IMG/VR virus record: IMGVR_UViG_3300033489_000003
Location: 1-64,000 of that record
Direction: 5' to 3' (one strand)
Length of the DNA stretch: 64,000 nucleotides
Source: a virus
The notes under the pieces were generated by a model that was not told the origin of the DNA, ran no database searches, and saw only the letters and a program-made list of their open reading frames with translations. Position numbers and translations under genes: made by a program. Shown here piece by piece: positions 1 to 61,808 of the stretch; the first letter of the stretch is position 1; each line of letters opens with the position of its first letter.

Positions 1-291
1 ATGGACCAAGACGAAGAGCGCGCCGTTCAGATCCTGCATTCACTCGCGCACGTTCTCGGGTGGAGCGAGACCGCGCGGCTGATGAATCGACTGCAATGCG
101 AGACGAGGGGCCTGCGGGCGCCGAGAGCGATGGCGGAGCTGATCGCCGGTAAGAAACGGTTCAACGAAGCCTTGCGTGTGTTCATGGGTGAGCACGAGGA
201 TCTGCTGCGCACGCTGGAGGCGTTGGAGGTGAAGGCGGAAGGCGGCGTCGTCGCCGACGAGAAGAGCGCGGGCGTGGGGGAGAAGCGATGA
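1..291 (+). CDS. hypothetical phage protein (may start upstream of the window)
   Basis: ORF coupled by an ATGA overlap to the next ORF. Confidence 0.5.
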   Translation: MDQDEERAVQILHSLAHVLGWSETARLMNRLQCETRGLRAPRAMAELIAGKKRFNEALRVFMGEHEDLLRTLEALEVKAEGGVVADEKSAGVGEKR

Positions 292-503
292 CCGCCGCGC
301 CGCCGCCTGAACGTCTATCGGATGGCGAACTAGAGTTCGTCTCGGCCGACATCCAAACGATGGTGAAGCTGCTGGCCGATATGCCTGAGTGCAGGGTGTT
401 AGAGCGTCTCGGCTTCGTGTCGCGAATCGGTGCACAGCTTGGCAAGCTCATCGGGCACGTTGCCGCGGTCGAACTGGAGCTGGCGAAAGCGGAGAGGAAG
501 TAG
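288..503 (+). CDS. hypothetical phage protein
   Basis: 71-aa ORF, ATGA overlap with the upstream ORF. Confidence 0.55.
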   Translation: MTAAPPPERLSDGELEFVSADIQTMVKLLADMPECRVLERLGFVSRIGAQLGKLIGHVAAVELELAKAERK

Positions 504-557
504 GGAGAGATGTCGATTTGTGCATTGCGCGTATGGCGCGTGATGTTGGCAATGGTT

Positions 558-574
558 AACTGAAACGTTCAGTT
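558..574. promoter_or_regulatory. inverted repeat AACTGAA-ACG-TTCAGTT, possible operator
   Basis: Perfect 7-bp inverted repeat in the AT-richer intergenic region before the Cas7-like gene. Confidence 0.3.
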
Positions 575-620
575 CGTGGCATTACAAGTCTGGCCCAAAG
601 GGCAAGGAAGGGTAACGACA

Positions 621-1454
621 ATGGCATTCGGAAAGAAAACGCAGAGCAGTGAGAAGTTGGATCAGGCGACTGTGGCGATGAAGGCTTCCGAGGCGCTAAA
701 GAAGCGCCGAGCCGTCGGCGTTCAGTTGGCCATTAGAGTGGTCGGCACGTCGCCGCTCCTGATGCACCGCTGGACGACCAAGGCCATTATCCAGATGGTT
801 GGTAAAGCGGTAGGCCAGAGTCAGCCGAGAGGCGCCAAGGATCTCACGGAAGAATACGAGCAATCGTACCATCGTAACGAGAACGGCAAGGTCGCGATGC
901 CTTGTCGGATCGTGAAGGCAGCAACGATCGACGGCGCCATCGCAACCGAGGGCGCTGTCACCAAAGCGGATCTGAAGCGTTCGCTTCGTGTCGTCGGCTA
1001 TACGGCTCCGATCGTTACGAAGAAGCCGATGGAAATGGATTGCCGCATCGCTTCGAATAACGGCTCCCCAGACATGCGCGCCCGCGCCGTGATCCCGGCG
1101 GGATATCACTTCGATATCGTCGTCCAGTTTAACAGCCCGTTGACGCCTGACAAGGTGGTGGCGGCGCTCGAAGGAGCTGGCTCCTGCATAGGTCTGTGCG
1201 AAATGCGACCAGAGCGCGGCGGCGAGTACGGGACGTTCACGATCGAGATCCTGGGCAACGATCAGATTGCGCGCATCCTCAAAGAGAACTCCGTGCCCGA
1301 GGAGGAGTACAAGATTCCGCCTGAGTTCCTGCGGGCGTTCTCCATGGGCGAGGTCAAATCCGATGTGGCCGCCAAGGCGATGGCCGTCGCCGGTCACGTC
1401 AACGGTCAGGCGAATGGGAAGAAGACCAAAAAGCAAGCGGAGGTTGAGGCATGA
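621..1454 (+). CDS. stand-alone Cas7/RAMP-like RNA-binding protein (candidate effector of the GGY-NN array)
   Basis: N-terminal IRVVGTSPLLMH (RAMP beta1), MPCRIVKAA (P-x3-K helix) and C-terminal Gly-rich loop GAGSCIGLCEMRPERGGEYGTF; ATG 621 has a GGAAGG RBS. Confidence 0.8.
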   Translation: MAFGKKTQSSEKLDQATVAMKASEALKKRRAVGVQLAIRVVGTSPLLMHRWTTKAIIQMVGKAVGQSQPRGAKDLTEEYEQSYHRNENGKVAMPCRIVKAATIDGAIATEGAVTKADLKRSLRVVGYTAPIVTKKPMEMDCRIASNNGSPDMRARAVIPAGYHFDIVVQFNSPLTPDKVVAALEGAGSCIGLCEMRPERGGEYGTFTIEILGNDQIARILKENSVPEEEYKIPPEFLRAFSMGEVKSDVAAKAMAVAGHVNGQANGKKTKKQAEVEA

Positions 1455-2056
1455 AAAAACACATAACCAAGGCGTCGCCGCCGGCGCCGCCCATGGCCAA
1501 GAGATACGTCGCGTCAGGCTACTCGGAGGACGAAGCGCAGATCATCGGCGCGGAGCTAGCGCGCATCGCCAAGGCGAACAAGACGGACGTCGCGTCACTC
1601 GACAAGGAGCTCGTATTCGACCGAGTGGAGAAAACGCCCAATCACCCGCTACGCCAATTCTACGATTGGGACGACGCGAAGGCGGCACGCGCGCAACGCG
1701 TGACCGTCACTGGCAACATGATCCGGTGCATCCGCACGGTCGACATCGGGCAGCAAAACGGGAACCGAGACGAACAACGCCGCGTCCCGGAATTCATCTA
1801 CGTCCCAAATGGGTTGGTCAAGACCGATGGCAGCGTGACACGAAGCCGTGTGCTAACCGACGACGTCTTGGCGAACGATCCGATGTTTGCGAACGCGCTA
1901 GGTCACAAGATCCGGATGGTAAAGAATGCCGTCGGCGAGCTCGCGTGGCTCGCGCGCAGTCGCAACACATCTACCGAGGTCGCGGGACTGGTCCAAGACC
2001 TTGAGGCGGCGCTCAACGAATATCTGGCCAGCGTGGCGATCGCGGACGTTGGATGA
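1451..2056 (+). CDS. partner protein coupled to the Cas7-like gene, function unknown
   Basis: ATGA overlap; motif HPLRQFYDWDDAKAARAQR resembles a phage family I recall seeing beside such RAMP genes. Confidence 0.7.
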   Translation: MKKHITKASPPAPPMAKRYVASGYSEDEAQIIGAELARIAKANKTDVASLDKELVFDRVEKTPNHPLRQFYDWDDAKAARAQRVTVTGNMIRCIRTVDIGQQNGNRDEQRRVPEFIYVPNGLVKTDGSVTRSRVLTDDVLANDPMFANALGHKIRMVKNAVGELAWLARSRNTSTEVAGLVQDLEAALNEYLASVAIADVG

Positions 2057-2066
2057 AAGCAGACGG

Positions 2067-2517
2067 GGCAGGCAAGGTAGGGCCCGGCGGGGCATGGCTT
2101 GGCATGTTCAGGCGCGGCGTGGCAGGCAAGGCAGGCGCGGCCAGGCACGGTTCGGTTGGGCAAGGCTCGGTCCGGTATGGCATGGCAAGGCAGGCATGGT
2201 TCGGCGCGGCAGGGTGCGGCCCGGCTAGGTGCGGCTCGGCGCGACAGGGCAAGGCAGGCGTGGCACGGTTCGGCCCGGTGCGGCGGCGCTTGTCCGGGCA
2301 CGGCGAGGCTTGGCATGGTTGGGCGTGGCAGGCGCGGCTGGGCACGGTTAGGCACGGCGTGGCGTGGTTTGGTGCGGCATGGCAGGCGTGGCACGGCTGG
2401 GCAGGGCCCGGCGAGTCGCGTCCGGGCAGGTCTCGGTTTGGCGCGGCAGGCTAGGCTAGGCGCGGCCGGGTTCGGTTCGGCCTGGCGAGGTATGGCTGGT
2501 CGGGACAGGGCAGGCGT
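2067..2517 (+). repeat. GGY-NN pentamer array divided by GGCA tetramers (putative guide-RNA array)
   Basis: Manual parse: 83 pentamers, 74 starting GGC/GGT; GGCA delimiters at 2067, 2121, 2130, 2189, 2253, 2327, 2381, 2445, 2509. Confidence 0.93.
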
Positions 2518-2598
2518 GGAGTAGATGTTGAGATGGCTGTGCTAAAGAAGTAGGTATTCGCAGACGGCTCCGCGCTGGCGCGGGGCGGGAGTTAGTGG

Positions 2599-3165
2599 AT
2601 GGCAGCAATCGAGAACGTAAGAGGTACGGTCCGCTTTGACGAGATCGTGCCGCGTGAGTCGCCGGACTACTTCAACGTCGGTGACAGGTGCATGATCGAT
2701 CAGGTAGCCGAATGGATGGCCGACGAAGACGCCGTCGGCATGGTTGCGCCTGGCGGTGCCGTCAGAGACACGCTTCGGAGTCCGACGGCTACGCTGTGTC
2801 TTGATCGCGGCTGGCTCGGGTCGAAACGGGAACGCGCCGAGACGCTGCAAGCGCAGGCGAAGCGCGGCTGGAAAGTCACAGATGACGAGTGGCTAACCAT
2901 CCAGCGCGCCTTCGACTTCAGGTGCGTCTATTGCGAAGCCACGCCAAATCGTCTCACGCGCGATCACGTTAAGGCGCTCGCCGCTGGCGGCCGAAACGTG
3001 TGGCGCAACATCCTGCCAGCGTGCCGAAGCTGTAACTCGCGCAAGAACGTGAAGAGTCTGTCGCTTTGGTTCGGCGCTGAGCCGGCGAAGCTTGAAGGGT
3101 TGTTGGCGCGCGTCGCAGCGGGCAGGTCGAAGGCGGCAAGGCTTCGGAGGGAAGAGCGTACGTAG
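2599..3165 (+). CDS. HNH endonuclease
   Basis: CVYC...TRDHVKALAAGGRNVWRNILPACRSCNSRK. Confidence 0.82.
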   Translation: MAAIENVRGTVRFDEIVPRESPDYFNVGDRCMIDQVAEWMADEDAVGMVAPGGAVRDTLRSPTATLCLDRGWLGSKRERAETLQAQAKRGWKVTDDEWLTIQRAFDFRCVYCEATPNRLTRDHVKALAAGGRNVWRNILPACRSCNSRKNVKSLSLWFGAEPAKLEGLLARVAAGRSKAARLRREERT

Positions 3166-3219
3166 CTTATTCGGTTGTCTCAAATCGGTGACGCGCTGGT
3201 CGCGTAACTGGAGGTTCGG

Positions 3220-4098
3220 ATGGGTAATCGAGCAGCAAGAGAGAAAGCCGCGATCGAACAGTCCGCGGTTCACAGCGAAGAAGGCAAGAAGCGGCCGATG
3301 CGGCACCAAGCGCGCAGATTCCCAGGGCTGTACGCATCATGGGGCGGGTTGGACGCGGTCTTCTATTTTCGGTGGTGCGAGCTAGAGATGGGTTTCAGGA
3401 CTCACGGCATCGAGCCACAGGCTGAAACGATTGGGCAGCCACTTGTGGCGCTTTGGGACAATTTCGAGGCGCTGAAAGACCGCGCCAAGAGAGACCCGAA
3501 GCTGCTCAAGCTGGTGGACTACATCATGCGAACGACCGGAGGCGCGGCGGCTCGTCCTGGCAGTAGCCGCCAAACCAAGGGCTGCATGCAGCCTGACAAG
3601 ACAACGGACGATCAGCTAAGGGCGGTTCGCCGGTACAGGCGTGTGCACGCCGGAATGCTGCGTCTGAAGGCAGAGCACCCGACCCATTACGCCGTGTTGA
3701 ACGTAGTTTGCGTGCCTAGGCGATACGCGCCGGAGATCGAAACGAAGTGGGGGTACGAGCTCGCCGACCTGTGCATGCGGCTCGACCGAACCACGGGCGC
3801 CCACGCGACCGCGATGGCCAAGGAAGCCGAACACAAGCGGGTCACGCTGGAAACGTGGATTCTGCGGCGCATTGAAAAGAACGATAAGTTCATCGAACTG
3901 GCCAGAGAAGAAGCCGAGAAGATGGCGAGCGAGGCCATCCAGGCGTTCGAAGCCGTAACGGAGCTGCCGAAGGCGATGCGGGAAGCCGATGAGACGGCAG
4001 AGGAGGCGGATGCCGCCGCGCAGCCAAAGAAAAGAACGAGAGCACCAAAGGTGGTCAGTCTCGGCTATGACGACGAGCCCGGCGAGGAGGTCGCTTGA
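3220..4098 (+). CDS. hypothetical protein (position suggests a late-gene regulator)
   Basis: 292-aa ORF with GGAGG RBS, upstream of the packaging genes. Confidence 0.6.
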   Translation: MGNRAAREKAAIEQSAVHSEEGKKRPMRHQARRFPGLYASWGGLDAVFYFRWCELEMGFRTHGIEPQAETIGQPLVALWDNFEALKDRAKRDPKLLKLVDYIMRTTGGAAARPGSSRQTKGCMQPDKTTDDQLRAVRRYRRVHAGMLRLKAEHPTHYAVLNVVCVPRRYAPEIETKWGYELADLCMRLDRTTGAHATAMAKEAEHKRVTLETWILRRIEKNDKFIELAREEAEKMASEAIQAFEAVTELPKAMREADETAEEADAAAQPKKRTRAPKVVSLGYDDEPGEEVA

Positions 4099-4385
4099 AG
4101 CCGCCCGACCGGGACCAGGACGAGCTTGTGCTTACGGGCTGGAAACAGATCGCCACCGCGATGGGAACGAGCGTGAAGACCGTCCAGCGGCTCGCCGATA
4201 GGCTCGCTCGAGGGGAGCAGGATCCGCTCCCAGTTTGGGCCTACTGCGACTCCGTAATTGCCTATCCGACGGCGCTGCGAGACTGGCGCGGCCGTCAGAA
4301 AATCGCGTGGAACAAGGCCCGCATGGTCGCGCGGCGGGAGCTAGGTGTCCCATTCAGTCCCGAGCCGAACGGAAAAGCCGAGTGA
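4095..4385 (+). CDS. helix-turn-helix DNA-binding protein
   Basis: LTGWKQIATAMGTSVKTVQRL HTH pattern. Confidence 0.6.
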   Translation: MKPPDRDQDELVLTGWKQIATAMGTSVKTVQRLADRLARGEQDPLPVWAYCDSVIAYPTALRDWRGRQKIAWNKARMVARRELGVPFSPEPNGKAE

Positions 4386-5783: not shown

Positions 5784-6245
5784 GTGCCGGCAGGAGTACC
5801 TACATCAGAAGAGACGATTGCGGAGTTCCGCGCAGACTACGTTTGCAGCGGCAATCCTTCGAAATCTGCTCGCAAAGTCGGCATCTCCGAGCGTACCGGT
5901 AGGGAGATAGCGCAGCGTCTACAGCTGGACGCGTCCTTCGCCGAAGAGCGCCGCGTTCAACGCGCGAGATTCCTGGAGGAGGCGGTAGTTGCTCGCCACC
6001 GCGTACTCGAGAAGGCGCTGAAGCGGTTCTTGGCGAAGAGCGAAGTGCCGCAAGTCGTAGGCGAAGGCGCCAACGTCACCATCATCGACAAGCGGCCCGA
6101 CTACGGGAAGCTGGTGCTGGAGGCTGAGAAGAACGCGCACGCGTTGGCGCGGTTCGAGGCGGAGAAGAGCGGCGAGGTTCTAAACGCCAGGGACGTCAGA
6201 ATCACAGTGGTGGGGCCCGATGACCCTGCTAAACCAGAGTCATGA
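5784..6245 (+). CDS. putative terminase small subunit
   Basis: N-terminal HTH (PSKSARKVGISERTG); lies upstream of the large subunit. Confidence 0.55.
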   Translation: MPAGVPTSEETIAEFRADYVCSGNPSKSARKVGISERTGREIAQRLQLDASFAEERRVQRARFLEEAVVARHRVLEKALKRFLAKSEVPQVVGEGANVTIIDKRPDYGKLVLEAEKNAHALARFEAEKSGEVLNARDVRITVVGPDDPAKPES

Positions 6246-6886
6246 AACGCTGCACCGGCTGCGCTGCCGAGAAACCCGCGTCAGACTTCTATCGAGACAA
6301 GCAAAAGAAAGACGGCCTGTCGTCTCGATGCAAGCCTTGTAAGAACGCAGACAATCGCGCCCACTTCTTGGCTGATCCAACGGCAGCTCGGCGTGGCAAA
6401 CGCAAGTGGGCAAAGGCCAACCCGGGTCGTATGCGGGCCCTAGGTGACCGATGGCGAGCCGCTAACCCTGCCAAGGTCAAAGCCAGCTTTGCAAAGTGGG
6501 CAAAGGCCAACAAGCCCAAGATCGTCGAGTGGCGAGAGTCACACCGAGAGGTGTTTCGTAAAGCGGCCAAGAATTGGGCCGCTCGCCATCCGGAGAACGT
6601 TAAGGCGGCGTGTCGAAACCGTCGAGCCCGCATTGCCGGGTCATCGTCTCAACTCACTGCTTTCGATTGGGTCGGCAGATTGGACGAGTTCTGTGGTCTG
6701 TGCGCATATTGCCTGGTCGCAACTGACAGGCCGACGCAGGATCACTTTCGGCCGTTGTTCCGTGGCGGACAACACGACTGCGAAAACGTTGTTCCGGCGT
6801 GCGGCAGTTGCAACAGTTCCAAGCGCGACGGTTTAGTCTTTGACTGGGTCAGTCGCGGAGTCGGCGTCTGCCAACCGTCGACGTAG
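6242..6886 (+). CDS. HNH endonuclease with N-terminal Zn finger
   Basis: KRCTGC...CKPC; CAYC...DHFRPLFRGGQHDCENVVPACGSCNSSK. Confidence 0.85.
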   Translation: MKRCTGCAAEKPASDFYRDKQKKDGLSSRCKPCKNADNRAHFLADPTAARRGKRKWAKANPGRMRALGDRWRAANPAKVKASFAKWAKANKPKIVEWRESHREVFRKAAKNWAARHPENVKAACRNRRARIAGSSSQLTAFDWVGRLDEFCGLCAYCLVATDRPTQDHFRPLFRGGQHDCENVVPACGSCNSSKRDGLVFDWVSRGVGVCQPST

Positions 6887-8277
6887 GGGTCAAGTTCAAC
6901 CGTCCACAGCATCGCGCGTTCTGTGCGATGGGCGAGCGCCGGACCATCTTTCTCGGATGGGGAAGAGGGACTGGAAAGTCTCACTTTCTCCGCACCGTGT
7001 GTTGGCTACGCGTGGCGGAATGGGACGGGAAGCTTAGAACGAAGGCGCAGGAGCCGTTTCGCGGTGTTCGCATCGCATGGCTAATGCCGGCTCGAAAACA
7101 ATTTGTTGATGTCCACGGGGCCTCGATCCTTCAGGATCTTGAGCCAGGTGGAAAATACGGCTTTTTGGGCGGGAAGGTCAACCGCGCAACCTGGCATATC
7201 GATTTTCCTGGCGGGTCGACGTTGATGCCGTTCCCCGCGGCTGACGCGAACTCCAAGACCGCCAGAGGGATCCGTGCAGACATTTTGGTTGTCGACGAAG
7301 GCGACGACGTCGACACATCCGTCTACGATTCGGTGGCCATACCGTGGCTTAGCGCGCGGTGGTCGCTTGGCGAGGAACTAATCGCCGGCACGCCCACGCG
7401 TGGGCGTCACGGTCTGTGGTTTAGAACACTCAAGTGGGGCAGACTCGGCGAGCGCATTCGACGCGGCGAAGCCGTTCCGGATTTGTCTCCGGAAGAGACC
7501 AAGGCTTACGCCAGCATCTATCCGTTTCTGGCGACATACGTTGATACGCCTGAGACGGTTGACCCTGTTGCCGTGGCGAAAGCCAAGGCAACAACGCCGC
7601 CGTCGATATTCAAGCGAGAGTGGCTCGCCGATCCAGATTCCGCAGAGGGGCTTGTTTTTGGCGACGTCTTCGTCGAGAGCTTTCATGTCCGTTCACCGCC
7701 GCAAGACGTCACGTGGACAGAGATTCTCATCGGGTGCGACCACGGCACCGAGGACCCAGGGTGCTTGCTTCTCGTCGGCGTGATTGGCCACGGGAACGAC
7801 GCCACCGCTTGGGTGATTGACGAAGTCTACGAGAGCCACCGCCTTGAGGGCTGGTGGACCCAGCAGCTCAAGCGCTGGACCGGTTGGTACCCCAACCACC
7901 GATTCTACGGCGACCCGTCGAGACCCGGCACCGTTGAAGCCTATCGGCTCAATGCCGGCGCGCGCGTGCAGGAGGTCGACAACTCGATCGAGGACGGCAT
8001 CAACGCCGTTGCGGATCGCTTCGTCATTCGCGAGCGTGAGGACGGCTCGCGGTTCGCTCGCCTCTACGTCTCGCCGAAGTGTGTGAACCTGATCGCTGAG
8101 CTCGGCAAGTATCGCCGCAAAGCGGACCCGCGCGACAAGGACCGCTACCTCGAAGACATTCTCGACCGCTGGAACCATTCGATCGACGCCCTGCGCTACT
8201 GCCTGTTTAACCGATTCGATCCACGGTCCAGGGCGGGAAAGCGCAACACGAGAAGCCTCGAAGAACGCAGCTCCTAG
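6868..8277 (+). CDS. terL: terminase large subunit (probable CTG start)
   Basis: Walker A GRGTGKS, Walker B ILVVDE, coupling motif GTP, nuclease IGCDHG and NHSIDALRY. Confidence 0.9.
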   Translation: MPTVDVGVKFNRPQHRAFCAMGERRTIFLGWGRGTGKSHFLRTVCWLRVAEWDGKLRTKAQEPFRGVRIAWLMPARKQFVDVHGASILQDLEPGGKYGFLGGKVNRATWHIDFPGGSTLMPFPAADANSKTARGIRADILVVDEGDDVDTSVYDSVAIPWLSARWSLGEELIAGTPTRGRHGLWFRTLKWGRLGERIRRGEAVPDLSPEETKAYASIYPFLATYVDTPETVDPVAVAKAKATTPPSIFKREWLADPDSAEGLVFGDVFVESFHVRSPPQDVTWTEILIGCDHGTEDPGCLLLVGVIGHGNDATAWVIDEVYESHRLEGWWTQQLKRWTGWYPNHRFYGDPSRPGTVEAYRLNAGARVQEVDNSIEDGINAVADRFVIREREDGSRFARLYVSPKCVNLIAELGKYRRKADPRDKDRYLEDILDRWNHSIDALRYCLFNRFDPRSRAGKRNTRSLEERSS

Positions 8278-30939: not shown

Positions 30940-32805
30940 ATGGCGTCCCCGCTTCTAGAGCTCAACAGCGCCTCCCTCGGCGGCTGGGTCGCGGCCGCCG
31001 AGGACGGTGTCGACGTCCTACCCGGGGAAGTAGTCAGCCTTCGACTGATCGATTCGGCCGGAATTCGCCTATGGAACCTCACGGTTATTGGGACCGATGA
31101 GGAGATTACGGCGCCGGCGATCACGCAGGCTGGGTCGATCTCCGGAACTGCCACCTTTACGGTACCGACGCCGCCAGACGACGGCGTTGCGCTCGGCATT
31201 CAGTCCCAGGTTGGTTTTCTGGCGCTCGGCGAGGACCGCTACAGCCAGCCCGACCCCACCTACACGACCACCATTGGCGTCTTCGTACGCACAGGTGAGG
31301 GGCTAAGGCTCGGCTTCATCAACGAGAAACTTGAGGGCTCGGCCGAGTGGGGCTGGGTTATCAAGATCAACGAGCTCACGCGCCGCGCCCCCGCGACCGG
31401 AACGGGCGTCCCCACGGGGCGCACGATCAGCACGACGACGCCCATCCGCATCGACGGCGGCGCGTCGGCGGACCTGTCGGCAAACCGCACCATCTCCCTC
31501 ATCCCCGGCACCGTAGCGGGTCAGGTGCTCGGCTGGGACGGGGCGTCGTGGCTCGCGCGGCAGGTCGTCGTCCTCACCGGCATTACGGTGTCGACGCTCG
31601 GGCTTGGCGTCGTCCACTCGAGCGCCGGCGGCGTCTTTTCGAGTTCGCTCATCGTCGATGCAGACGTTGACCCTGCTGCCGCTATTGCGGTCTCCAAGCT
31701 CGCGCCAGGCGCCAACGGGCAGGCGATCGTCACGGCCGGAGGCGTTGCCGTATGGGGCACCGTTACGGCGGGCTCGATCGCGCCAGGCGCCAACCGGCAG
31801 ATCTACGTCACCAATGCGACGCCGCTTGGTGCCTGGGCAACGGTATCAGGCGACGTCTCGGTGCCGACGACGGCTGGCGTCTTTCGCGTTGACGCGATCA
31901 ACGGCACCGCGGTAACGACGCCAGGCGGCGGTGCTGTCGGATCCGTGCTCCGCATGACTGGCGTCGCGACGTGCGACTTCGGCGAACTCGATCTTGCCGA
32001 CGAAGACGCGGTAGACGGGCTTCTCGCCGTCACGCACATCGCACCCGGTACCAACGGGCAGTTTCTCGGCACCGTCGGTGGCGTCACTACGTGGACCGCG
32101 GTCCCGATCGGCTCCATTACGCCGGGCGCTGCCAACACGGTCCTGACGACCAACGCGGGCGCGACGGCAACGGCTTGGACGCTAGCGGTCAATGCGAACA
32201 TCGATCCGGCGGCGGCGATTGCCGTCACGAAGCTCGCGCCCGGTGGGCTCAATTACACGCTCATCACCGACGGTACCGGCACGATCGTCTGGTCGCCGGG
32301 TGTGCCTGGCACGGGTACGCTGCTAGGCGACGTCACGGGCCCGCTCGCCACCAACGTCGTCGAGCGCATCCACGGCACCACCGTCCCCGCGGGCGGCGCT
32401 CTCCTGGTCGGCCAATCGCTCCGCGCGACCGGTCTCGCCGCGTCCGCGTGGGGCGCCGTCGACCTATCCAACTCGAACGCCGTCATCAACGCCCTTCCGC
32501 TCGCCAACATCGCGCAGGGCGGCGCCGTCCTCAACGACGTCATGCGGTGGAACGGTGGCGTGTGGGACCCGGAGCCGATTGGCAACCTGCTGCCGCCGAG
32601 TGCGACCGCGGTGCAGATCGTGGCCGATATGCCGGCGCTCGAGCTGCTCCTCGTGACACCACTCGCCGATCGGATCCTCTGCATCGTGCAAACGCCAACA
32701 CGTCTCTACTGGCTCGACAAGGGCGCTACGCCAGCGGCTAGCGGCGACGACGAACTTCCGCCCGCCAACGGTGGCGGCGCGTGGCGCTTCAAGGAGGCGG
32801 CGTAG
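30940..32805 (+). CDS. tail fibre-like protein with internal repeats
   Basis: Repeated DPAAAIAV[ST]KLAPG and APG.NGQ units. Confidence 0.7.
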   Translation: MASPLLELNSASLGGWVAAAEDGVDVLPGEVVSLRLIDSAGIRLWNLTVIGTDEEITAPAITQAGSISGTATFTVPTPPDDGVALGIQSQVGFLALGEDRYSQPDPTYTTTIGVFVRTGEGLRLGFINEKLEGSAEWGWVIKINELTRRAPATGTGVPTGRTISTTTPIRIDGGASADLSANRTISLIPGTVAGQVLGWDGASWLARQVVVLTGITVSTLGLGVVHSSAGGVFSSSLIVDADVDPAAAIAVSKLAPGANGQAIVTAGGVAVWGTVTAGSIAPGANRQIYVTNATPLGAWATVSGDVSVPTTAGVFRVDAINGTAVTTPGGGAVGSVLRMTGVATCDFGELDLADEDAVDGLLAVTHIAPGTNGQFLGTVGGVTTWTAVPIGSITPGAANTVLTTNAGATATAWTLAVNANIDPAAAIAVTKLAPGGLNYTLITDGTGTIVWSPGVPGTGTLLGDVTGPLATNVVERIHGTTVPAGGALLVGQSLRATGLAASAWGAVDLSNSNAVINALPLANIAQGGAVLNDVMRWNGGVWDPEPIGNLLPPSATAVQIVADMPALELLLVTPLADRILCIVQTPTRLYWLDKGATPAASGDDELPPANGGGAWRFKEAA

Positions 32806-49432: not shown

Positions 49433-50152
49433 TTACCGCAACCGACGCAGCTCGACCGCGTAGTATCGCCGTTCCCACTCCGCCCGCCCATGTCCGTCGC
49501 CGCGCCGCCCGCCTAGCGAAGCAACGCGAATGCGCGTCGCGTCTAGCTGCCCACCGAGCGAGCACGCGTAGGCCGGATGGATCGGCAGGTCGTGCTCGAC
49601 GAGATACGCGAACACGTCGAGCCCGGACCACCACCCGATGGGCGCGCACGTGGACGCGCTGGACTCGCCGTATGCGCGCATCCGCGCCTTGCGTTGCCCG
49701 CTCTCGTCGGCGCGTACGCCGCTCACGTGAGCAGCGCCGAAGCGTTGCGCCGCTTCAGCGAAGCCACGCTCAAGCGTGCCCGTAGCATGCCAGCCGTCTT
49801 CGTCGCGGATGCACTGGCTCACGATCTCGTGATAGTTTGAGCTCGGGTACGTTTGAAAAAAAGCGTCTCGCACGAGCGAGCAATCAGGGTTGCAGATAGG
49901 CTCAACGCGGATCCAAACGACAGGCACCTCCGCCGCAAGCCCGGACACCATGTGAGCGATCACGACCGAGTCCTTCCCCCAACTGACACCCGCGTAGCAT
50001 CGCGTCCTAGCTACGAATTCGGCGACAGCCGCGCGCGCCCTATCTACGTGACGACGGTAGAGCGACAACGACGCGTGGGCTCGCGCTGTCCTCTCAACTA
50101 TCTCCCACGCCGCAAGGTCATCTGGCGTGTGCCGCGGTGACGCAATCAGCAC
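49433..50152 (-). CDS. cysH: CysH/PAPS-reductase-like protein of type IV-B loci
   Basis: GVSWGKDS PP-loop; GVRADES..R; PIGWWSGLDVFAYL...LPIHPAY. Confidence 0.85.
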   Translation of the reverse strand: MLIASPRHTPDDLAAWEIVERTARAHASLSLYRRHVDRARAAVAEFVARTRCYAGVSWGKDSVVIAHMVSGLAAEVPVVWIRVEPICNPDCSLVRDAFFQTYPSSNYHEIVSQCIRDEDGWHATGTLERGFAEAAQRFGAAHVSGVRADESGQRKARMRAYGESSASTCAPIGWWSGLDVFAYLVEHDLPIHPAYACSLGGQLDATRIRVASLGGRRGDGHGRAEWERRYYAVELRRLR

Positions 50153-50613
50153 GGTCGCCACGCACCGAAAACGCTCTCGGCTAGCCTTTCGTGTTTGCGC
50201 CATTCGCCAAACCCAAACCGCTGCATCTCGTCCCACGTGGCAGATCGTGTCCAGCCTGTGTGAAGTCGATGGGCGGCGACAACGGCGCCTGTCCTATGCG
50301 ACCCTTTCCAACAATGCACGAGCGTTCCACGCACAAGAAGCGATAGCACGTTGAGCGCTGGTAATCCCAGATGCTCATCGATCGGAAATCGAACGTACTC
50401 AACGCCAAGCTTTGCGTAGGTGCTTGAGGCCAGCAGTTGGCGAGGATTGTCTCTGAGGTCGACGACGCGACGGATTGCGTTATGAGTCAATGCCAGCTTC
50501 AATTCTCCGGCGGAATACTTTCCGGATCGGAACAGCCCGCGGTCGAATTCTGCGAACCTGCGCAAGCTCGTCAGCCCGGCACCGCGCAAAGCTGCTCTCG
50601 CGAATGCATCCAA
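50146..50613 (-). CDS. tyrosine/dual-specificity phosphatase-like protein (start uncertain)
   Basis: LFRSG, VVDLR and P-loop HCWKGSHRTG. Confidence 0.8.
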   Translation of the reverse strand: MDAFARAALRGAGLTSLRRFAEFDRGLFRSGKYSAGELKLALTHNAIRRVVDLRDNPRQLLASSTYAKLGVEYVRFPIDEHLGLPALNVLSLLVRGTLVHCWKGSHRTGAVVAAHRLHTGWTRSATWDEMQRFGFGEWRKHERLAESVFGAWRPC

Positions 50614-51218
50614 TACGGAAACGTGATCGTTGCATACGCGAGCGGAGGATCCTCTAAACCTGGCCAGTCCGCCGGCAACGCGCGCAGTGGCTTACCATCT
50701 CGGACGACTGGAAACCCGTCTCCCCACGACTCATACGGGTCCACGGCCCACTCGCGAACCCTTCCGCGCCCGGTTGAACGCTTGTGCCCAAGGTAGCGAA
50801 CGAGAGTGAGCAGATCGCGAATGGCGTCAGCGTCACCCATGGCGAACCACTCAACCTCGTCGCGCTCTGCCCACGCTACTTCGCTCGGCAAGCGGTACGA
50901 CTTCGTTGGCCCTGCCGATAACAGAATCCGTCTGAACTTCGTTGCGCCCATTGCCTGCGCTTCGGCAAGCGGGAACTTGCGGTTGACGTATCGCAGCTCG
51001 TGCTGGTCGAATTTAGGCGTAGCGAACGAGCACAGGTGAAACCTACCGCAGGGCTCCTTCGTAACCGGGATCTCGATGTCGGCGAGTTCGCCGAATCCTG
51101 GCGGTGGCAGTTGATCGCGCTGTGCCACGGCCCACGCGAGCAGACCATCTAGGCGTAACGACCCGTCCCGTAGCGAGATGGGGCCATCTAGCCGCGCCGT
51201 GATTCGAAGCGGAGTCAC
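50571..51218 (-). CDS. csf3: Csf3 (Cas5-like RAMP)
   Basis: PLRITARL...LDGLLA; LGHKRSTGRGRV..W. Confidence 0.85.
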   Translation of the reverse strand: MTPLRITARLDGPISLRDGSLRLDGLLAWAVAQRDQLPPPGFGELADIEIPVTKEPCGRFHLCSFATPKFDQHELRYVNRKFPLAEAQAMGATKFRRILLSAGPTKSYRLPSEVAWAERDEVEWFAMGDADAIRDLLTLVRYLGHKRSTGRGRVREWAVDPYESWGDGFPVVRDGKPLRALPADWPGLEDPPLAYATITFPYWMHSREQLCAVPG

Positions 51219-52198
51219 GCATTCACCGTAGCGAGAAACTCTTTGATGCGCGCCGCCCTGGCTTGAACGTGCGACCTGAACATGGTCCCAGTCTTCGCGG
51301 CAAGATCCGTCGTGTCCATGGGGTGTAGCCTATCAGCCGGCGCACTTACGGCAACGCCCTTGGCCATAATGGCGCGGAGTAGCCCATGCCCTGTTCCTCG
51401 CTTTCCGCCGACGCGCGCGTTGGCAAGCATTGCTGCCACCGTAGTGGAGAAAACGTCGACATCGAGATCGTTGTAGAGCGTGGCCTCGACTCCCCAAGAG
51501 AAAAGCGAGCCTGACGCGACGCGTTCGAACGTGCGGGGCAACATCGTACTCTTCGTTGCCTCCCGCGCCGTTGCGATGTCGGTATCGTGCGCGGCTTCGC
51601 TCTGCAAGAGTCGGTTCTCCGCATCGGAAGCGGCGCCAGCAGATAGGAGCTTACGCTTGCCTGGGTCGAGCGTTGGGTCCATGCGCACGCGCTGCTCTAG
51701 TTCCATGTGCGCGCGTGACGTGTCGAACTGACCTACGTGATCAACGATCCACTTTGGCAAAAGGTGCTTTGACTCCGCGCAAACCAGCAACGCGTCCTCC
51801 ACGACGAGTCGCCCAGGGATGACGCGATTGCCTGCGCACCCGCCCAGCAGCGACAGGGACGGCACGAGATCACACATCTCTCGATAGGTGTCGAGTTTGA
51901 TGGTGCTGGCGTCACCACGTCCAGTGATCATTCCGCCAGCAAAGAGAAGGCGGAGAGCGGCCTCCGACAGCGACGGGTCGGCCAGCAGCCCAGCGGCGTC
52001 GAGAAACGCGTACGCGATGGCCTCACGGCAAGCGTGGCGCATCGTGTCCGACGTCACGCACGCCACTTGCGCCCACGCACCATCAGGCATGCGGATCTTG
52101 CGACGGAACGCGACGGCGCTGTTCCCGTGCACTTCAGAGTGGTGCGCTATTGGCGTTGCCGCCTCCAGCAAAAACTCAAACCGTTTGATCTCGTGCAT
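51215..52198 (-). CDS. csf2: Csf2 (Cas7-like RAMP)
   Basis: ATPIAH, MRHACR, LFAGG, PSLSLLGG, VGGKRGTGHG; AAGGAGG RBS. Confidence 0.88.
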   Translation of the reverse strand: MHEIKRFEFLLEAATPIAHHSEVHGNSAVAFRRKIRMPDGAWAQVACVTSDTMRHACREAIAYAFLDAAGLLADPSLSEAALRLLFAGGMITGRGDASTIKLDTYREMCDLVPSLSLLGGCAGNRVIPGRLVVEDALLVCAESKHLLPKWIVDHVGQFDTSRAHMELEQRVRMDPTLDPGKRKLLSAGAASDAENRLLQSEAAHDTDIATAREATKSTMLPRTFERVASGSLFSWGVEATLYNDLDVDVFSTTVAAMLANARVGGKRGTGHGLLRAIMAKGVAVSAPADRLHPMDTTDLAAKTGTMFRSHVQARAARIKEFLATVNA

Positions 52199-52559
52199 CT
52201 CTAGCCTCCTTACGTTCTTCGGCAATCTTTCTAGTCAAAACCAACAGGAACGCGTATTCCCGCTCGATAAGGTCCAGCCACTCACTTGCGCACCCGCGCT
52301 CGTGCACGAGGTGCGTCAGTTGGAGTAATGATGTCGAATAGCGAACACTGGGCGCCGACAGTTGGAGCTGTCTTGCGATCATCGTCGCCCACTCCTCCGG
52401 ACCCGACGACATCCGCGCCGCCGCTCTCATTCTGTCCTGCAACTGCTCCCAATGTTTCAGCACGTTCACGTGCGGCGTCGACAGGTATGCCGCTCGGATC
52501 TCGAGCAGCACGTCTACCGTCGCGCTTCGGAGTTGCTCCTTCACCTTTTCTTCTATCAC
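52176..52559 (-). CDS. Cas11-like small subunit
   Basis: 127-aa helical protein with WEQLQDRMRAAA; AAGGAGG RBS; between csf1 and csf2. Confidence 0.68.
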   Translation of the reverse strand: MIEEKVKEQLRSATVDVLLEIRAAYLSTPHVNVLKHWEQLQDRMRAAARMSSGPEEWATMIARQLQLSAPSVRYSTSLLQLTHLVHERGCASEWLDLIEREYAFLLVLTRKIAEERKEARDARDQTV

Positions 52560-53286
52560 GCTGAGCCTCCTTCTTTGCGGCCCGCGCCGCCTTCTCTTCT
52601 TCCATTCGTTTGGCGACCGTTTCTTCATCTCGTTGCGCCAGCCATAGCGCGAGCGCGAACCACGGCGAGCGGCGCTTGTCCGACCAGTTCTCCTCGAAAC
52701 GGCGAATCTCTTCGGCGCACCGTTGGTATGAGCCCTGTCCGTACTCACCGCGCTCCACTTCTTCTTTCGTCGCGCCAGCCGTAAGCAACGTCGTCATTCG
52801 ATCGACAAGCGTCCACCCGGACGCATGATCGATCGGAATCGTTACGAGCGTCTCCTCGAACATGATGGCGCCTCGCCGTGTATTTGGCGGGTTCACTGGC
52901 GTCCAAGGAATCACGTGTTTTTGGCCGCTGTCAGCAATAGCTGCGAACCACGGCCCCTCTTTCGGCGCACGCAGCCACGCGCGCATCTCCGGCTTGTTTC
53001 CCTTGTTGAACTTGAGCACGCATCGATCATCTACGAGCCACGAATACATGCGCATCGTATCCGGCGGTCGGCCGGCCATCACGTGGACGCATGAAGCGCA
53101 AACATGTGCGCTGGACGGCGACCGAACGCGTGACTGACCGACGAACGTACTGCCTAGCCACCGCTCCACCGGAACACCGAACACGCTCGATCCGGCGCAG
53201 ACCCAGCAATGTTCAGCGGCATGCTCTACAGCGTCGGCGACCTTCGCCCCGCCGAGACGGTCGCTCAAAAGTTGAGAGGCCATCAT
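52282..53286 (-). CDS. csf1: Csf1 (Cas8-like large subunit)
   Basis: CWVC...VCASC Zn finger; GQKHVIPWTPVN. Confidence 0.8.
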   Translation of the reverse strand: MMASQLLSDRLGGAKVADAVEHAAEHCWVCAGSSVFGVPVERWLGSTFVGQSRVRSPSSAHVCASCVHVMAGRPPDTMRMYSWLVDDRCVLKFNKGNKPEMRAWLRAPKEGPWFAAIADSGQKHVIPWTPVNPPNTRRGAIMFEETLVTIPIDHASGWTLVDRMTTLLTAGATKEEVERGEYGQGSYQRCAEEIRRFEENWSDKRRSPWFALALWLAQRDEETVAKRMEEEKAARAAKKEAQRDRRKGEGATPKRDGRRAARDPSGIPVDAARERAETLGAVAGQNESGGADVVGSGGVGDDDRKTAPTVGAQCSLFDIITPTDAPRARARVRK

Positions 53287-54230
53287 CACAGCATCATGTC
53301 CGTTATTATGACACGACCGCACCCGAATGCCGTTCTGCCTCCGAATCCAATCCTAGCCGCCGCCTCGAGCAGCCACCGCGAAACCGCGTTCACCTCAAGC
53401 ACGAGCGATCCGCTCCACCCACGCACGGGCCCATACTTACCACCGAATGGTATCGTTTCCGGATGCGTGTCCTGTGACACGATCTCAACGCAGATCCTCT
53501 TGGCGACATAGCGCGCCCACTCCTCTGACGGGGCGAGTCGTCGAACGAACTCAACACCGATCGCGCTTGCTATGTTGACGGCGCCAGGTCGAACGCATTC
53601 CGACGCACCACCGCCCGAGCGAATGACGATCGGAGTGATGGCGTCGAGCCGAACCAGCTGCCGCCCGCGCCTTTGGATCGCAGGTGATCGAAAGCGCCAC
53701 GCCGGTCCAAACGTTAGCGTAGTCGGCCGGTCGAACAACGGAACGTGTACCGACTTTCCTGCTAGCTTCATTCCTTCCTGTCTGAACCAGTGTACTCCCC
53801 ATCCGGATCCATGCGGGACGAGAGAGAAGTTTGGAATACGCGGCACGTGGCCGGCGCCGAGTACAGCCGTAAGCGCGCCATGAAGAGCGGGCGAGTTTCT
53901 TAGTTCGATGGGCCAACGCGGCAACGGTGAATAGTGCACCGTCATGGCGCATCCCGGAAGGTGGACATGGTATGGAGGAGCGCCGGCAAGCCAATGGTTT
54001 TGGCGCGTGCAGTTTCTGTTCCTCCTCGCCCACGCTTCGCACCGAAGCCTTACGGCAAGCGTTTCGCCAATCGGTCGGCGTCGCTCTCTAGTCTGTTCGC
54101 GAGCGCTGTCTAGCGTGCGTTTGCGTTTGCTCCTACAGGCTTCAGAGCACGTCGCCGCGTTCGCGCACAGTTTCCGGAACGTTGACCCGCATTGAACGCA
54201 CCAAGCTTGCCTTATTGAGGACAACGGCAT
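53286..54230 (-). CDS. Cas6-like RAMP with N-terminal Zn finger
   Basis: LHGAL, ITPIVIR, GWSGSL and C-terminal GFGGRTAFGCGRV G-loop; N-terminal CVQC...CSEAC. Confidence 0.78.
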   Translation of the reverse strand: MPLSSIRQAWCVQCGSTFRKLCANAATCSEACRSKRKRTLDSAREQTRERRRPIGETLAVRLRCEAWARRNRNCTRQNHWLAGAPPYHVHLPGCAMTVHYSPLPRWPIELRNSPALHGALTAVLGAGHVPRIPNFSLVPHGSGWGVHWFRQEGMKLAGKSVHVPLFDRPTTLTFGPAWRFRSPAIQRRGRQLVRLDAITPIVIRSGGGASECVRPGAVNIASAIGVEFVRRLAPSEEWARYVAKRICVEIVSQDTHPETIPFGGKYGPVRGWSGSLVLEVNAVSRWLLEAAARIGFGGRTAFGCGRVIITDMML

Positions 54231-61175: not shown

Positions 61176-61370
61176 CGCGCTTCTCCAAGAGCCGGTGGAG
61201 GATTATCTCCCCGATGGGTTTCACGCCGCTCTCGCTGCGTATTCCGCTCAGCGCCGCTTCGAGTTTCGCGGCCCAGTCAACCGCCGCTTCCTTCTCCGCC
61301 CGCACGGCGTCTAGCTCGGCGAGGAGCGCGAACCTGTCGGCCTGCGTAAACTCAGAACGCGGCTTCTTGT

Positions 61371-61506
61371 GGGAAGCGGGCAGGACTCGAACCTGCGACC
61401 CAAAGATCCGGTAACGATTCTCGGCCGGCCCGTCACCGGGCAAAGATGTGAGAACCGATATCCCTTGCGGGAATTCTTTTGCTCTACCGACTGAGCTACC
61501 GCTTCC
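61371..61506 (-). ncRNA. tRNA mimic 2 with expanded anticodon arm (Y-RNA-related)
   Basis: Acceptor GGAAGCG/CGCTTCC, D arm TAGCTCAGTCGGTAGAGC, T arm GCAGGTTCGAGTCCTGC; large insert replaces the anticodon loop. Confidence 0.8.
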
Positions 61507-61519
61507 AAAAAACGAACAG

Positions 61520-61580
61520 CGCGGATAAAGAGGCAGCAGACCGATTTCTATTAGCGAGAACAGTCTGCCTGCGACCCGCG
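61520..61580 (-). ncRNA. Y-RNA-like hairpin 2
   Basis: 5' CGCGGGTCGCAG ... CTTTATCCGCG 3' terminal stem with bulged C. Confidence 0.6.
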
Positions 61581-61583
61581 TCG

Positions 61584-61706
61584 GGGATCCGTCCCGGAAT
61601 CGAACCGGGATATCTACCTTAAATGGGTAACGGTCACTCAGCGGCCCGCGAACGGGCAAAGTACGACTGACCGGTTTTAGCGTCCTGCCTTTAGACGAAC
61701 GGATCC
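61584..61706 (-). ncRNA. tRNA mimic 1 with expanded anticodon arm (Y-RNA-related)
   Basis: Acceptor GGATCCG/CGGATCC, D arm TTCGTCTAAAGGCAGGACG, T arm CCCGGTTCGATTCCGGG. Confidence 0.78.
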
Positions 61707-61710
61707 ATAA

Positions 61711-61770: not shown

Positions 61771-61775
61771 AACAC

Positions 61776-61805: not shown

Positions 61806-61808
61806 TAG

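What the first reader, a model, noticed from the sequence alone, without database searches (positions are those of the whole stretch)
621..3165. Candidate non-CRISPR RNA-guided system: solo Cas7-like RAMP, partner gene, GGY-NN array and HNH
Seen: a Cas7/RAMP-like ORF (621-1454; GTSPLLMH and a C-terminal G-rich loop) is coupled to a 201-aa partner ORF. The GGY-NN array starts 10 nt after the partner's stop codon, and an HNH gene follows. No cas1/cas2, cas5, cas6 or CRISPR repeats are adjacent. Established: Cas7 proteins polymerise along guide RNA with a fixed nucleotide period. Inference: each protomer grips a constant GGY and presents the variable NN for base pairing, so each array unit would be a guide read by a gapped, non-contiguous code, perhaps aimed at competing phages or host genes. 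From memory this resembles the recently reported phage 'VIPR'-type systems; I cannot verify that here. Whether the partner and HNH belong to the system is untested.
Basis: partly seen in the sequence, partly recalled or inferred. Interest (0 to 1): 0.97.

Follow-up and report, generated by a model that had tools for sequence, protein, structure and literature searches.

The report
Phage VIPR guide-RNA silencing locus
This is a real example, in a complete 105-kb uncultured phage genome, of the VIPR system first described in 2026 preprints: a lone Cas7-like protein, an accessory protein and seven guide RNAs written as GGY-NN pentamers. It is a new member of a known kind, and its targets are still unknown.

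Summary
Window 621-2524 (+) is a VIPR system (bioRxiv 10.64898/2026.04.26.720920).

- **vipr (621-1454):** it folds as a minimal RAMP. The best structural matches are Csm3/Cas7 (Z 11.4). It aligns over its whole length with the experimentally studied SUSP1 Vipr (hhalign 96.7%, E 4e-10).
- **Accessory gene (1451-2056):** it is translationally coupled to vipr. The same family sits beside vipr in 62 of 69 homologous IMG/VR loci.
- **Array (2067-2524):** it has 90 pentamers, 81 of them perfect GGY. The NN positions carry about 0.1 bit of information. Invariant GGCA|GGY junctions with a 1-nt overlap cut it into seven guide-sized runs of 11-15 units. This is the published "staggered" architecture.
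- **Specificity:** such runs occur nowhere else in the 104.6-kb genome. In 54 of 69 homologous loci they lie on the vipr strand, never on the opposite strand.
- **Hypervariable guides:** a relative with 88% identical Vipr carries entirely different guides.
- **HNH gene (2599-3165):** it is absent from all homologous loci and is probably not part of the system.

No target was found. VIPR type could not be assigned. This scan has already reported VIPR systems in at least nine other genomes.

The parts
504..620 (+). Intergenic leader upstream of vipr with a ribosome-binding site (AGGAAGG about 8 nt before the ATG). This is the presumed promoter region of the operon.
   Evidence: Sequence read. 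The consensus sigma-70 scan found no promoter here, so a promoter is inferred, not shown. There are no GGYNN units here.
621..1454 (+). vipr: a 277-aa minimal RAMP (Cas7-like) protein. It has an RRM core (strand 34-42, helix 95-109, strands 122-130 and 163-170, helix 176-190, strand 206-210), a helical insert at 53-82, a thumb hairpin at 138-158 and a G-loop at 193-204. It also has a roughly 65-aa C-terminal helical extension (211-277) that short Viprs lack.
   Evidence: AF2 model: pLDDT 83, pTM 0.72. Foldseek best matches are Csm3/Cas7 at E 1e-7, with 177 hits at E<=1e-3. VIA-align gives Z 11.4 to Csm3 and 11.2 to a type III-B Cmr-beta complex chain (6s6b_I). hhalign against SUSP1 Vipr gives 96.7% probability, E 4e-10, over 170 columns. 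phrog_4652 matches at E 2e-15. There is no Pfam hit.
1451..2056 (+). vap-like accessory gene (201 aa), translationally coupled to vipr by an ATGA overlap. It has an N-terminal alpha/beta domain with a conserved HPL..(F/Y).W(D/N)..AA motif and a C-terminal helical hairpin (141-201).
   Evidence: A profile HMM of alignment A3 finds the family on the same strand next to vipr in 62 of 69 IMG/VR loci, and also in L072 and L073. AF2 model pLDDT 79. No Pfam hit. No solved fold matches beyond the helical hairpin. No similarity to SUSP1 Vap1.
2067..2524 (+). Staggered vrRNA array. There are nine GGCA delimiters (2067, 2121, 2130, 2189, 2253, 2327, 2381, 2445, 2509), seven guide-sized runs, one 2-unit mini-run, and a short terminal piece (GGCGTGGAGTAG).
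   Evidence: This is the only such array in the 104.6-kb genome. The junction GGCA|GGY is invariant across 114 junctions in homologous loci. No Rfam family, including hammerhead, matches here.
2071..2125 (+). Guide run v1: 11 pentamers, one degenerate (GTTCA).
2134..2193 (+). Guide run v2: 12 pentamers, all perfect GGY. It is preceded by a 2-unit mini-run at 2125-2134.
2193..2257 (+). Guide run v3: 13 pentamers, one degenerate (GACAG).
   Evidence: The first 9-10 NN match several unrelated phage ORFs in IMG/VR; I judge these matches not significant.
2257..2331 (+). Guide run v4: 15 pentamers, two degenerate (CGCTT, GTCCG).
2331..2385 (+). Guide run v5: 11 pentamers, all perfect GGY.
2385..2449 (+). 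Guide run v6: 13 pentamers, three degenerate.
2449..2513 (+). Guide run v7: 13 pentamers, two degenerate.
2599..3165 (+). HNH endonuclease gene next to the array. I judge it a neighbour, not a component.
   Evidence: PF01844 at E 3e-9. No homologue in any of 69 vipr loci. It shares only the 58-aa HNH motif (38% identity) with a second HNH gene at 6242-6886, just before the large terminase gene.

Best explanation
Window 621-2524 is a VIPR (Viral Interference Programmable Repeat) system of the staggered-array architecture. It sits near the left end of a complete 104.6-kb phage genome, about 4.4 kb upstream of the large terminase gene.

Likely mechanism, by homology to the SUSP1 and P. fulva systems:
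1. One transcript covers vipr, the vap-like gene and the array.
2. Vipr protomers assemble one per pentamer. The residues H49, R155 and E194-M195-R196, together with the thumb, hold each GGY. The two N bases are left exposed.
3. At each GGCA|GGY junction the unit is 4 nt instead of 5. This breaks the register, ends one filament and starts the next. The transcript is cut there into seven vrRNAs of 55-75 nt.
4. Each ribonucleoprotein binds double-stranded DNA that reads NNxNNx... (one base skipped per pentamer) and blocks transcription of a rival mobile element.

What is shown here: the fold, homology to a characterised Vipr, the array grammar, conserved gene order, and guide turnover between relatives.

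What is inferred: transcription, processing at the junction, RNP formation, the 1-nt-skip rule for this clade, and the nature of the targets.
For: **RAMP fold.** The AF2 model has pLDDT 83. The top structural matches are all class 1 backbone subunits (Csm3, Cmr4, Cas7-11, type IV and type VII Cas7): Foldseek E 1e-7, VIA Z 11.4-9.

**Homology to the experimentally studied SUSP1 Vipr.** The comparison was with L071:28474-29061:-. hhalign gives 96.7% probability, E 4e-10, covering residues 3-192 of 195. The SUSP1 GGY-contact residues named in 10.64898/2026.04.26.720927 align as follows: H17 with H49, R138 with R155 (invariant), D177 with E194, W178 with M195, and R179 with R196 (invariant). The clade consensus at the last three is D-W-R.

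**Array.** 81 of 90 units are perfect GGY, and the NN positions carry about 0.1 bit. Run lengths of 11-15 units fall within the published 9-16. The 1-nt-overlap junctions match the published 'staggered arrays' (fig. S18 legend).

**Comparative evidence.**
- 54 of 69 IMG/VR loci encoding a homologue carry 247 runs of 6 or more units on the vipr strand, and none on the other strand, in 597 kb.
- All 114 junctions read GGCA|GGY.
- The partner family is adjacent to vipr in 62 of 69 loci.
- L073 (Vipr 88% identical, coding DNA 83-85% identical) has the same gene order but unrelated guides.
- Gordonia phage UmaThurman gp39-gp41 has the same module.

**No self-targeting.** Under the 1-nt-skip rule, no site in the phage's own genome scores above shuffled controls. 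The paper reports the same for its systems.
Against: - There are no expression or binding data for this locus.
- The consensus scan found no promoter or intrinsic terminator.
- Two GGY-contact residues differ from SUSP1 (D to E194, W to M195). In SUSP1, D177A abolishes silencing, and the effect of E and M at these positions is unknown.
- The partner shows no detectable similarity to SUSP1 Vap1.
- No convincing natural target was found for any of the seven guides.
- VIPR type (I-VII) could not be assigned, because the classification figures and data files are not held.
Confidence: 0.88

Rival explanations
1. This is a nuclease-armed VIPR, like the published types III-V. In that case the HNH gene (2599-3165) would be the real effector partner, and the system would cut its targets rather than silence them.
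For: The HNH gene starts about 75 nt after the end of the array (terminal piece ends at 2524), on the same strand, with no predicted terminator in between. The paper reports HNH-containing Vap proteins in some types (fig. S21 legend).
Against: No HNH homologue was found in any of 69 loci with related Viprs (tblastn). The 201-aa partner, by contrast, is in 62 of 69. HNH genes are common free-standing elements in this genome. A second one lies at 6242-6886 before the terminase gene, and earlier notes report a third beyond the window's end. The published nuclease types are enriched in host defence islands, not in phages.
Confidence: 0.06
2. The locus is a decayed or repurposed VIPR. The array and genes are recognisable, but Vipr no longer reads GGY (E194/M195 in place of D/W), or the many degenerate units make the guides non-functional.
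For: The window protein and its 77%-identical relative P0002 have E-M where the clade consensus and SUSP1 have D-W. 9 of 90 units are not GGY, and they cluster in v4, v6 and v7.
Against: Both ORFs are intact and translationally coupled. The E-M pair is shared by the relative P0002, so it is not private to this genome. Other clade members carry F, N, S or R at the W position. The paper notes frequent internal degeneracy of functional vrRNAs. All nine junctions are intact.
Confidence: 0.05
3. The pentamer tract is not an RNA guide array. It would instead be a coding region for a Gly/Ala/Trp-rich repeat protein, or a structural DNA element such as a G-quadruplex-prone packaging or replication site near the genome end.
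For: Open frames of 133-163 aa run through the tract on both strands. Gene callers have translated such tracts elsewhere: the N-terminal extension of P0020 and UmaThurman gp40. The tract lies about 4.4 kb from the terminase gene, near the record's left end.
Against: The period is 5 nt, with a -1 shift every 55-75 nt, so no reading frame is preserved. Conservation falls on GGY and not on any codon position. Relatives keep GGY and the junctions but not the NN positions. The tract always follows the vipr strand and travels with vipr to other genome positions, for example next to the immunity region in UmaThurman.
Confidence: 0.01

Closest known systems
VIPR systems with 'staggered' vrRNA arrays (bioRxiv 10.64898/2026.04.26.720920, text and fig. 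S18 legend)
   Same: Both have a lone minimal RAMP (Vipr), one accessory gene and GGY/NN pentamer guides. Successive guides share one nucleotide, so the end of one marks the start of the next. Both are phage-encoded and lack cas1/cas2 and a CRISPR array.
   Different: This locus comes from an IMG/VR metagenomic phage, not from the NCBI set used in the paper. Its Vipr belongs to a small 'long' subclade (270-300 aa) with a C-terminal helical extension and a conserved MAFGKK N-terminus. In its nearest IMG/VR relatives (L001-L003) the array lies between vipr and vap, and it is more degenerate. Which of the seven types it belongs to could not be read from the text held here.
Type II VIPR of Escherichia phage SUSP1 (vipr-vap1 plus four vrRNAs), the experimentally and structurally characterised system
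   Same: The Vipr proteins are homologous (hhalign 96.7%). H17, R138 and R179 are conserved, and D177 and W178 are substituted (E194, M195). Both use GGYNN guides of about 11-15 units. In both, a two-gene operon is flanked by guides. No self-targeting was found.
   Different: SUSP1 Vipr is 195 aa. SUSP1 guides each end in an invariant 3' tail with a pseudoknot and are separate units. Here there is no tail, only GGCA|GGY junctions. The G-loop is four residues longer here. The accessory proteins are unrelated in sequence.
Gordonia phage UmaThurman gp39-gp41 (NC_031249; a cultured actinophage), and similar loci in Mycobacterium phages
   Same: gp39 is 31% identical to the window's Vipr. It is followed by a six-run staggered array with the same GGCA|GGY junctions, ending in the same GGCAGGCGTGGA as the window's array. 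A partner-family gene (gp41) follows.
   Different: The order is vipr-array-vap rather than vipr-vap-array. The Vipr is short (about 207 aa). The locus sits next to the integrase, repressor and excise region. The array is annotated in GenBank as a hypothetical protein (gp40).
Class 1 CRISPR-Cas backbone subunits (Cas7 family: Csm3, Cmr4, Csf2)
   Same: They share the RRM-thumb-G-loop fold (Z 9-11.4). Both polymerise along a guide RNA with a fixed period, and in both a thumb interrupts base pairing.
   Different: There are no CRISPR repeats or spacers, no cas1/cas2, and no Cas5, Cas6, Cas10 or Cas8 partner in the locus. The period is 5 nt, with 3 of every 5 guide bases sequestered, rather than 6 nt with 1 flipped. 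Sequence identity is only 8-19%.

Membership tests
VIPR system (Vipr + vap + vrRNA) | Vipr is a minimal RAMP: a single RRM core with a thumb and a glycine-rich loop | tested here: met
   AF2 model pLDDT 83. The best matches are Cas7-family chains: Foldseek E 1e-7, VIA Z 11.4, rmsd 3.7, 152 residues aligned. The thumb hairpin is at 138-158 and the G-loop RPERGGEYG at 196-204.
VIPR system (Vipr + vap + vrRNA) | Homology to a Vipr whose function was shown experimentally (SUSP1) | tested here: met
   hhalign of A1 against L071:28474-29061:- gives probability 96.7%, E 4.1e-10, 170 columns.
VIPR system (Vipr + vap + vrRNA) | GGY-contacting residues (SUSP1 H17, R138, D177, W178, R179) are conserved | tested here: inconclusive
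   H49, R155 and R196 are conserved. D177 aligns with E194 and W178 with M195 in this protein, while the clade consensus is D-W-R. The functional effect of E and M at these positions is unknown.
VIPR system (Vipr + vap + vrRNA) | Adjacent same-strand tandem YNNGG repeats (at least 4 units, typically 9-16 per vrRNA), with GGY constant and NN variable | tested here: met
   Seven runs of 11-15 units. 81 of 90 units are perfect GGY. Information is 1.9, 1.5 and 1.3 bits at positions 1-3, against 0.09 and 0.06 bits at positions 4-5.
VIPR system (Vipr + vap + vrRNA) | Guides (NN) are hypervariable between close relatives, while the proteins and GGY are kept | tested here: met
   In L073, Vipr is 88% identical at protein level and vipr and vap DNA are 83-85% identical. 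The array is at the same place but the guides are different.
VIPR system (Vipr + vap + vrRNA) | A minimal locus with a conserved accessory (vap) gene and no adjacent CRISPR array or adaptation genes | tested here: met
   The partner family is next to vipr in 62 of 69 loci. No CRISPR-type repeats lie within 10 kb. No cas families were hit in the neighbouring ORFs. Which of vap1-6 this gene corresponds to is unknown.
VIPR system (Vipr + vap + vrRNA) | Encoded mainly by phages or proviruses | tested here: met
   The record is an IMG/VR virus of 104,643 bp, 100% complete by CheckV. A large terminase gene is at 6928-8277.
VIPR system (Vipr + vap + vrRNA) | vrRNAs are expressed, processed and bound by Vipr | not testable with these tools
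   This needs small-RNA sequencing and a pull-down.
VIPR system (Vipr + vap + vrRNA) | Targets are recognised by the 1-nt-skip code (NNx), and natural targets lie in rival mobile elements | tested here: inconclusive
   There is no self-target. No significant match was found in session loci, in IMG/VR exact scans for all seven guides, or in species genomes for v2.
Type II VIPR (SUSP1 / P. fulva clade) | Each vrRNA ends in an invariant structured 3' tail (a pseudoknot in SUSP1), and the accessory gene is vap1 | tested here: not met
   There is no invariant tail between guides. The runs abut with a 1-nt overlap. The partner is unrelated to SUSP1 Vap1.
Nuclease-type VIPR (types III-V, HNH or helicase vap) | A nuclease or helicase accessory gene is conserved with vipr | tested here: not met
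   A homologue of HNH 2599-3165 is absent from all 69 related loci.
CRISPR-Cas class 1 | A repeat-spacer array, adaptation genes and a multi-subunit effector (Cas5, Cas7 and a large subunit) | tested here: not met
   No 20-nt or longer direct repeats other than the pentamer array lie within 10 kb. No cas Pfam hits were found in ORFs 1-4385.

The most novel reading that the evidence does not exclude
The 'long Vipr' subclade could be a distinct VIPR subtype. The subclade is defined as follows:
- proteins of 270-300 aa, with a conserved MAFGKK N-terminus and a roughly 65-aa C-terminal helical extension;
- only about 25 clusters at 50% identity;
- almost entirely metagenomic;
- no close relative in 185,579 species genomes.

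In such a subtype, the C-terminal extension would add a function that short Viprs lack. Examples are a built-in small-subunit-like module, filament capping at the GGCA junctions, or recruitment of another factor. Alternatively, guide processing could depend on another phage gene, such as the weak Cas6-like gene of the possible type IV-B-like operon at 49433-54230.
Probability: 0.12. Interest if true: 0.5.

Novelty: new member of a known kind. Interest (0 to 1): 0.3.

Why it matters
The locus adds a well-resolved natural example of the staggered-array form of VIPR, in a complete phage genome. It offers seven clean guides (v2 and v5 have no degenerate units), an explicit junction grammar (GGCA|GGY, invariant in 114 junctions), and a partner family found in about 90% of related loci.

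This is useful material for three questions the preprints leave open in the text held here. How are tail-less staggered arrays cut? What does the accessory protein do? How tolerant is the GGY pocket to D-to-E and W-to-M changes?

It does not change the picture of what VIPR is.

Tried and rejected
**Target searches under the 1-nt-skip rule**
- Own genome: best scores of 14-18 out of 20-28 specified bases, equal to shuffled guides.
- All session loci, 655 kb including 70 vipr loci: nothing above controls, so no guide is aimed at relatives' vipr or vap.
- IMG/VR exact scans:
  - v2, v7, v1, v4 and v6, with 18 specified bases each: 0 hits.
  - v5, with 16 bases: 24 hits, about the chance number, and none extends.
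  - v3, with 18 bases: 8 hits, of which three distinct sequences reach 20 of 20 on the first ten NN. All are antisense and in frame with the peptide [DE]AYGALA[DE][IM], but in unrelated proteins (large terminase, J-like tail protein, unknowns). I read this as a common GC-rich peptide, not a target.
- Species genomes, v2 with 20 bases: 4 hits, against about 1 expected. One is 22 of 22, but in a 33%-GC Eubacterium MAG, which is implausible for a 62%-GC phage.

**NN composition.** It fits the reverse complement of codon positions 1-2 (LLR +13 bits over the genome background). A simple per-position base bias explains it equally well (P 0.30), so I make no claim from it.

**Other checks that gave nothing**
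- Vipr-partner complex prediction: no verdict (score 0.00).
- Partner fold: no Pfam hit, no PDB sequence or fold match beyond a generic helical hairpin, and only unnamed viral clusters in the ESM Atlas.
- Rfam: nothing, including hammerhead.
- Close-Vipr scan of species genomes to infer the host: nothing (one search failed for lack of a conserved stretch).
- VIPR type assignment: the figures and data files are not held.
- The 5-unit run at 31336-31360 lies inside a 625-aa ORF and is chance.
Full report
**What is there.** The window is bases 1-64000 of an IMG/VR virus record of 104,643 bp, rated 100% complete. The record is 62% G+C, and a large terminase gene lies at 6928-8277.

On the + strand, ORF 621-1454 (277 aa) overlaps ORF 1451-2056 (201 aa) by ATGA. 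Ten nucleotides after the second stop codon, a G-rich tract begins and runs to about 2524. An HNH gene follows at 2599-3165. Neither of the first two proteins has a Pfam family. The first matches phrog_4652, of unknown function (E 2e-15).

**The array.**
- A plain Fourier test does not show a 5-nt period, because the register slips.
- Plotting GGY matches in each of the five phases shows long coherent runs that step back by one phase each time.
- Parsed, the tract is seven runs of 11, 12, 13, 15, 11, 13 and 13 pentamers, plus one two-unit run. Each run ends in GGCAG, and that final G is the first G of the next run.
- Of 90 units, 81 are perfect GGY. Information is 1.91, 1.50 and 1.26 bits at positions 1-3, and 0.09 and 0.06 bits at positions 4-5.
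- No other run of six or more units exists on either strand of the whole genome. Shuffled genomes give 0-3 runs of five or more units. The single 5-unit run at 31336-31360 lies inside a 625-aa ORF.
- No CRISPR-type repeat lies within 10 kb, and no Rfam family matches.

**The protein.**
- With an alignment of 33 homologues, AlphaFold2 gives a confident model: pLDDT 83, pTM 0.72. It has a beta-alpha-beta-beta-alpha-beta core, a beta-hairpin at 138-158 and a glycine-rich loop at 196-204.
- Foldseek against the PDB returns 177 matches at E<=1e-3. Csm3 subunits of type III-A complexes lead at E 1e-7.
- An independent all-against-all structural search gives Z 11.4 (Csm3), 11.2 (6s6b_I, a chain of the type III-B Cmr-beta complex) and 10.5 (a Cas7 domain of gRAMP). 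Essentially only RAMPs score above Z 7.5.

**It is a known kind.** A literature search found three 2026 preprints describing VIPR systems. A fourth preprint recovers VIPR arrays from metagenomes.

The published definition has four parts:
- a minimal RAMP, Vipr;
- an accessory gene, vap;
- vrRNAs made of 9-16 YNNGG repeats, whose GGY is held by the protein and whose NN pairs with DNA while skipping one target base per unit;
- mostly phage-encoded loci.

Array architectures include separate tailed guides (type II), hammerhead-separated arrays, and 'staggered arrays with overlapping vrRNAs' that share one nucleotide.

I fetched the SUSP1 record and located its vipr-vap1 pair between two GGYNN-bearing intergenic regions. 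I then compared my alignment with SUSP1 Vipr. The result was 96.7% probability, E 4e-10, end to end.

The residues that the cryo-EM paper names as GGY contacts align as follows:

| SUSP1 | This protein |
|---|---|
| H17 | H49 |
| R138 | R155 |
| D177 | E194 |
| W178 | M195 |
| R179 | R196 |

The consensus of this clade at the last three positions is D-W-R. The G-loop here is four residues longer than in SUSP1.

- A pattern-plus-tblastn scan of IMG/VR gave 69 loci encoding relatives.
- 54 of them carry 247 GGYNN runs of six or more units, all on the vipr strand. None lies on the opposite strand in 597 kb. Ten more loci have shorter runs.
- In 114 places one run abuts the next, and every one reads GGCA|GGY. 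The A is 99% conserved and the C 100%.
- Arrays typically end with one more GGCAGGYNNGG before ordinary sequence resumes.
- A profile of the partner protein finds its family on the same strand beside vipr in 62 of the 69 loci. It is therefore a true accessory gene. It shows no similarity to SUSP1 Vap1 or to any Pfam or PDB entry.
- The HNH protein has no homologue in any of these loci.
- The only close relative retrievable with flanks (L073, Vipr 88% identical) has the same vipr-vap-array order. Its coding DNA is 83-85% identical, but its guides are unrelated.
- A cultured actinophage, Gordonia phage UmaThurman, has the same module. Its array is annotated as a hypothetical protein.
- The family is large: 6,305 representatives at 50% identity with E<=1e-3. 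The 'long' form with the C-terminal extension, seen here, accounts for only about 25 of them.

**Mechanism.** By homology, one transcript carries both genes and the array. Vipr coats the RNA, one protomer per pentamer. The 4-nt GGCA unit breaks the register and marks where one filament and guide ends and the next begins. Each guide then directs binding to DNA that reads NNxNNx.

The fold, the homology, the grammar, the gene order and the guide turnover are shown here. Transcription, cleavage at the junction, RNP formation, the skip rule in this clade and the silencing outcome are inferred.

**Targets.** None was established.
- There is no self-match and no match to relatives' VIPR loci.
- Exact IMG/VR scans of 16-18 specified bases were run for all seven guides. 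They gave zero hits for five guides, chance-level hits for v5, and eight hits for v3.
- The v3 hits fall in unrelated proteins that share a common GC-rich peptide.
- A species-genome scan for v2 gave only chance-level hits.
- The host is unknown. No close Vipr was found in 185,579 species genomes.

**Verdict.** This is a new member of a known kind, and it belongs to the staggered-array form rather than the SUSP1 type II form. The HNH gene is most likely a bystander. This scan has already reported VIPR loci in at least nine other genomes, with the same conclusion, and a companion note on this window gave the same array parse.

Noticed in passing
I confirmed a PAPS-reductase (CysH-like) domain at 49433-50236 (E 1e-9) and a tyrosine-phosphatase-like ORF at 50146-50613. 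I found only a weak, sub-threshold Cas6 hit at 53286-54230 (E 0.006). The four ORFs in between have no Pfam hit. If the call is right, this phage carries two different RAMP-based systems.
   Followed up: partly
window 6242-6886 and 6928-8277: A second HNH endonuclease gene sits immediately upstream of the large terminase gene, which is the usual packaging-associated arrangement. It shares only the 58-aa HNH motif (38% identity) with the HNH gene next to the array.
   Followed up: partly
L072 (Gordonia phage UmaThurman, NC_031249) 3087-3397: The GenBank CDS 'gp40 hypothetical protein' is in fact a six-run staggered GGYNN array lying between a Vipr homologue (gp39) and a partner-family gene (gp41). 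Mycobacterium phages such as Quico, Florinda and Saal also encode Vipr homologues annotated as hypothetical proteins.
   Followed up: partly
P0020 (370 aa), residues 1-86: The N-terminal extension of this database protein is a translated GGYNN array lying upstream of its vipr gene, so it is a gene-calling artefact. Open frames through L033 and L013 have similar array-derived N-terminal stretches.
   Followed up: no
L033 4849-7507: One IMG/VR phage has three large staggered arrays (32 runs of six or more units) interleaved with two near-identical copies of the partner gene. This is a duplicated array-vap module.
   Followed up: no
L001-L003, about 5900-6420: In the nearest IMG/VR relatives (46-54% identical Vipr), the array lies between vipr and the partner gene. 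It consists of short, degenerate runs of 3-7 units that still step back one phase at a time.
   Followed up: partly
L073 431-610: The 88%-identical vipr on this 1.9-kb metagenome contig is interrupted near its 5' end. The frame from the conserved ATG stops after 59 codons, and the match resumes at residue 33 in another frame. This is either a sequencing error or a real frameshift.
   Followed up: no
window 61370-63497: Earlier notes on this genome report a Ro60 gene with tRNA-shaped and Y-RNA-like RNAs. I did not examine this.
   Followed up: no
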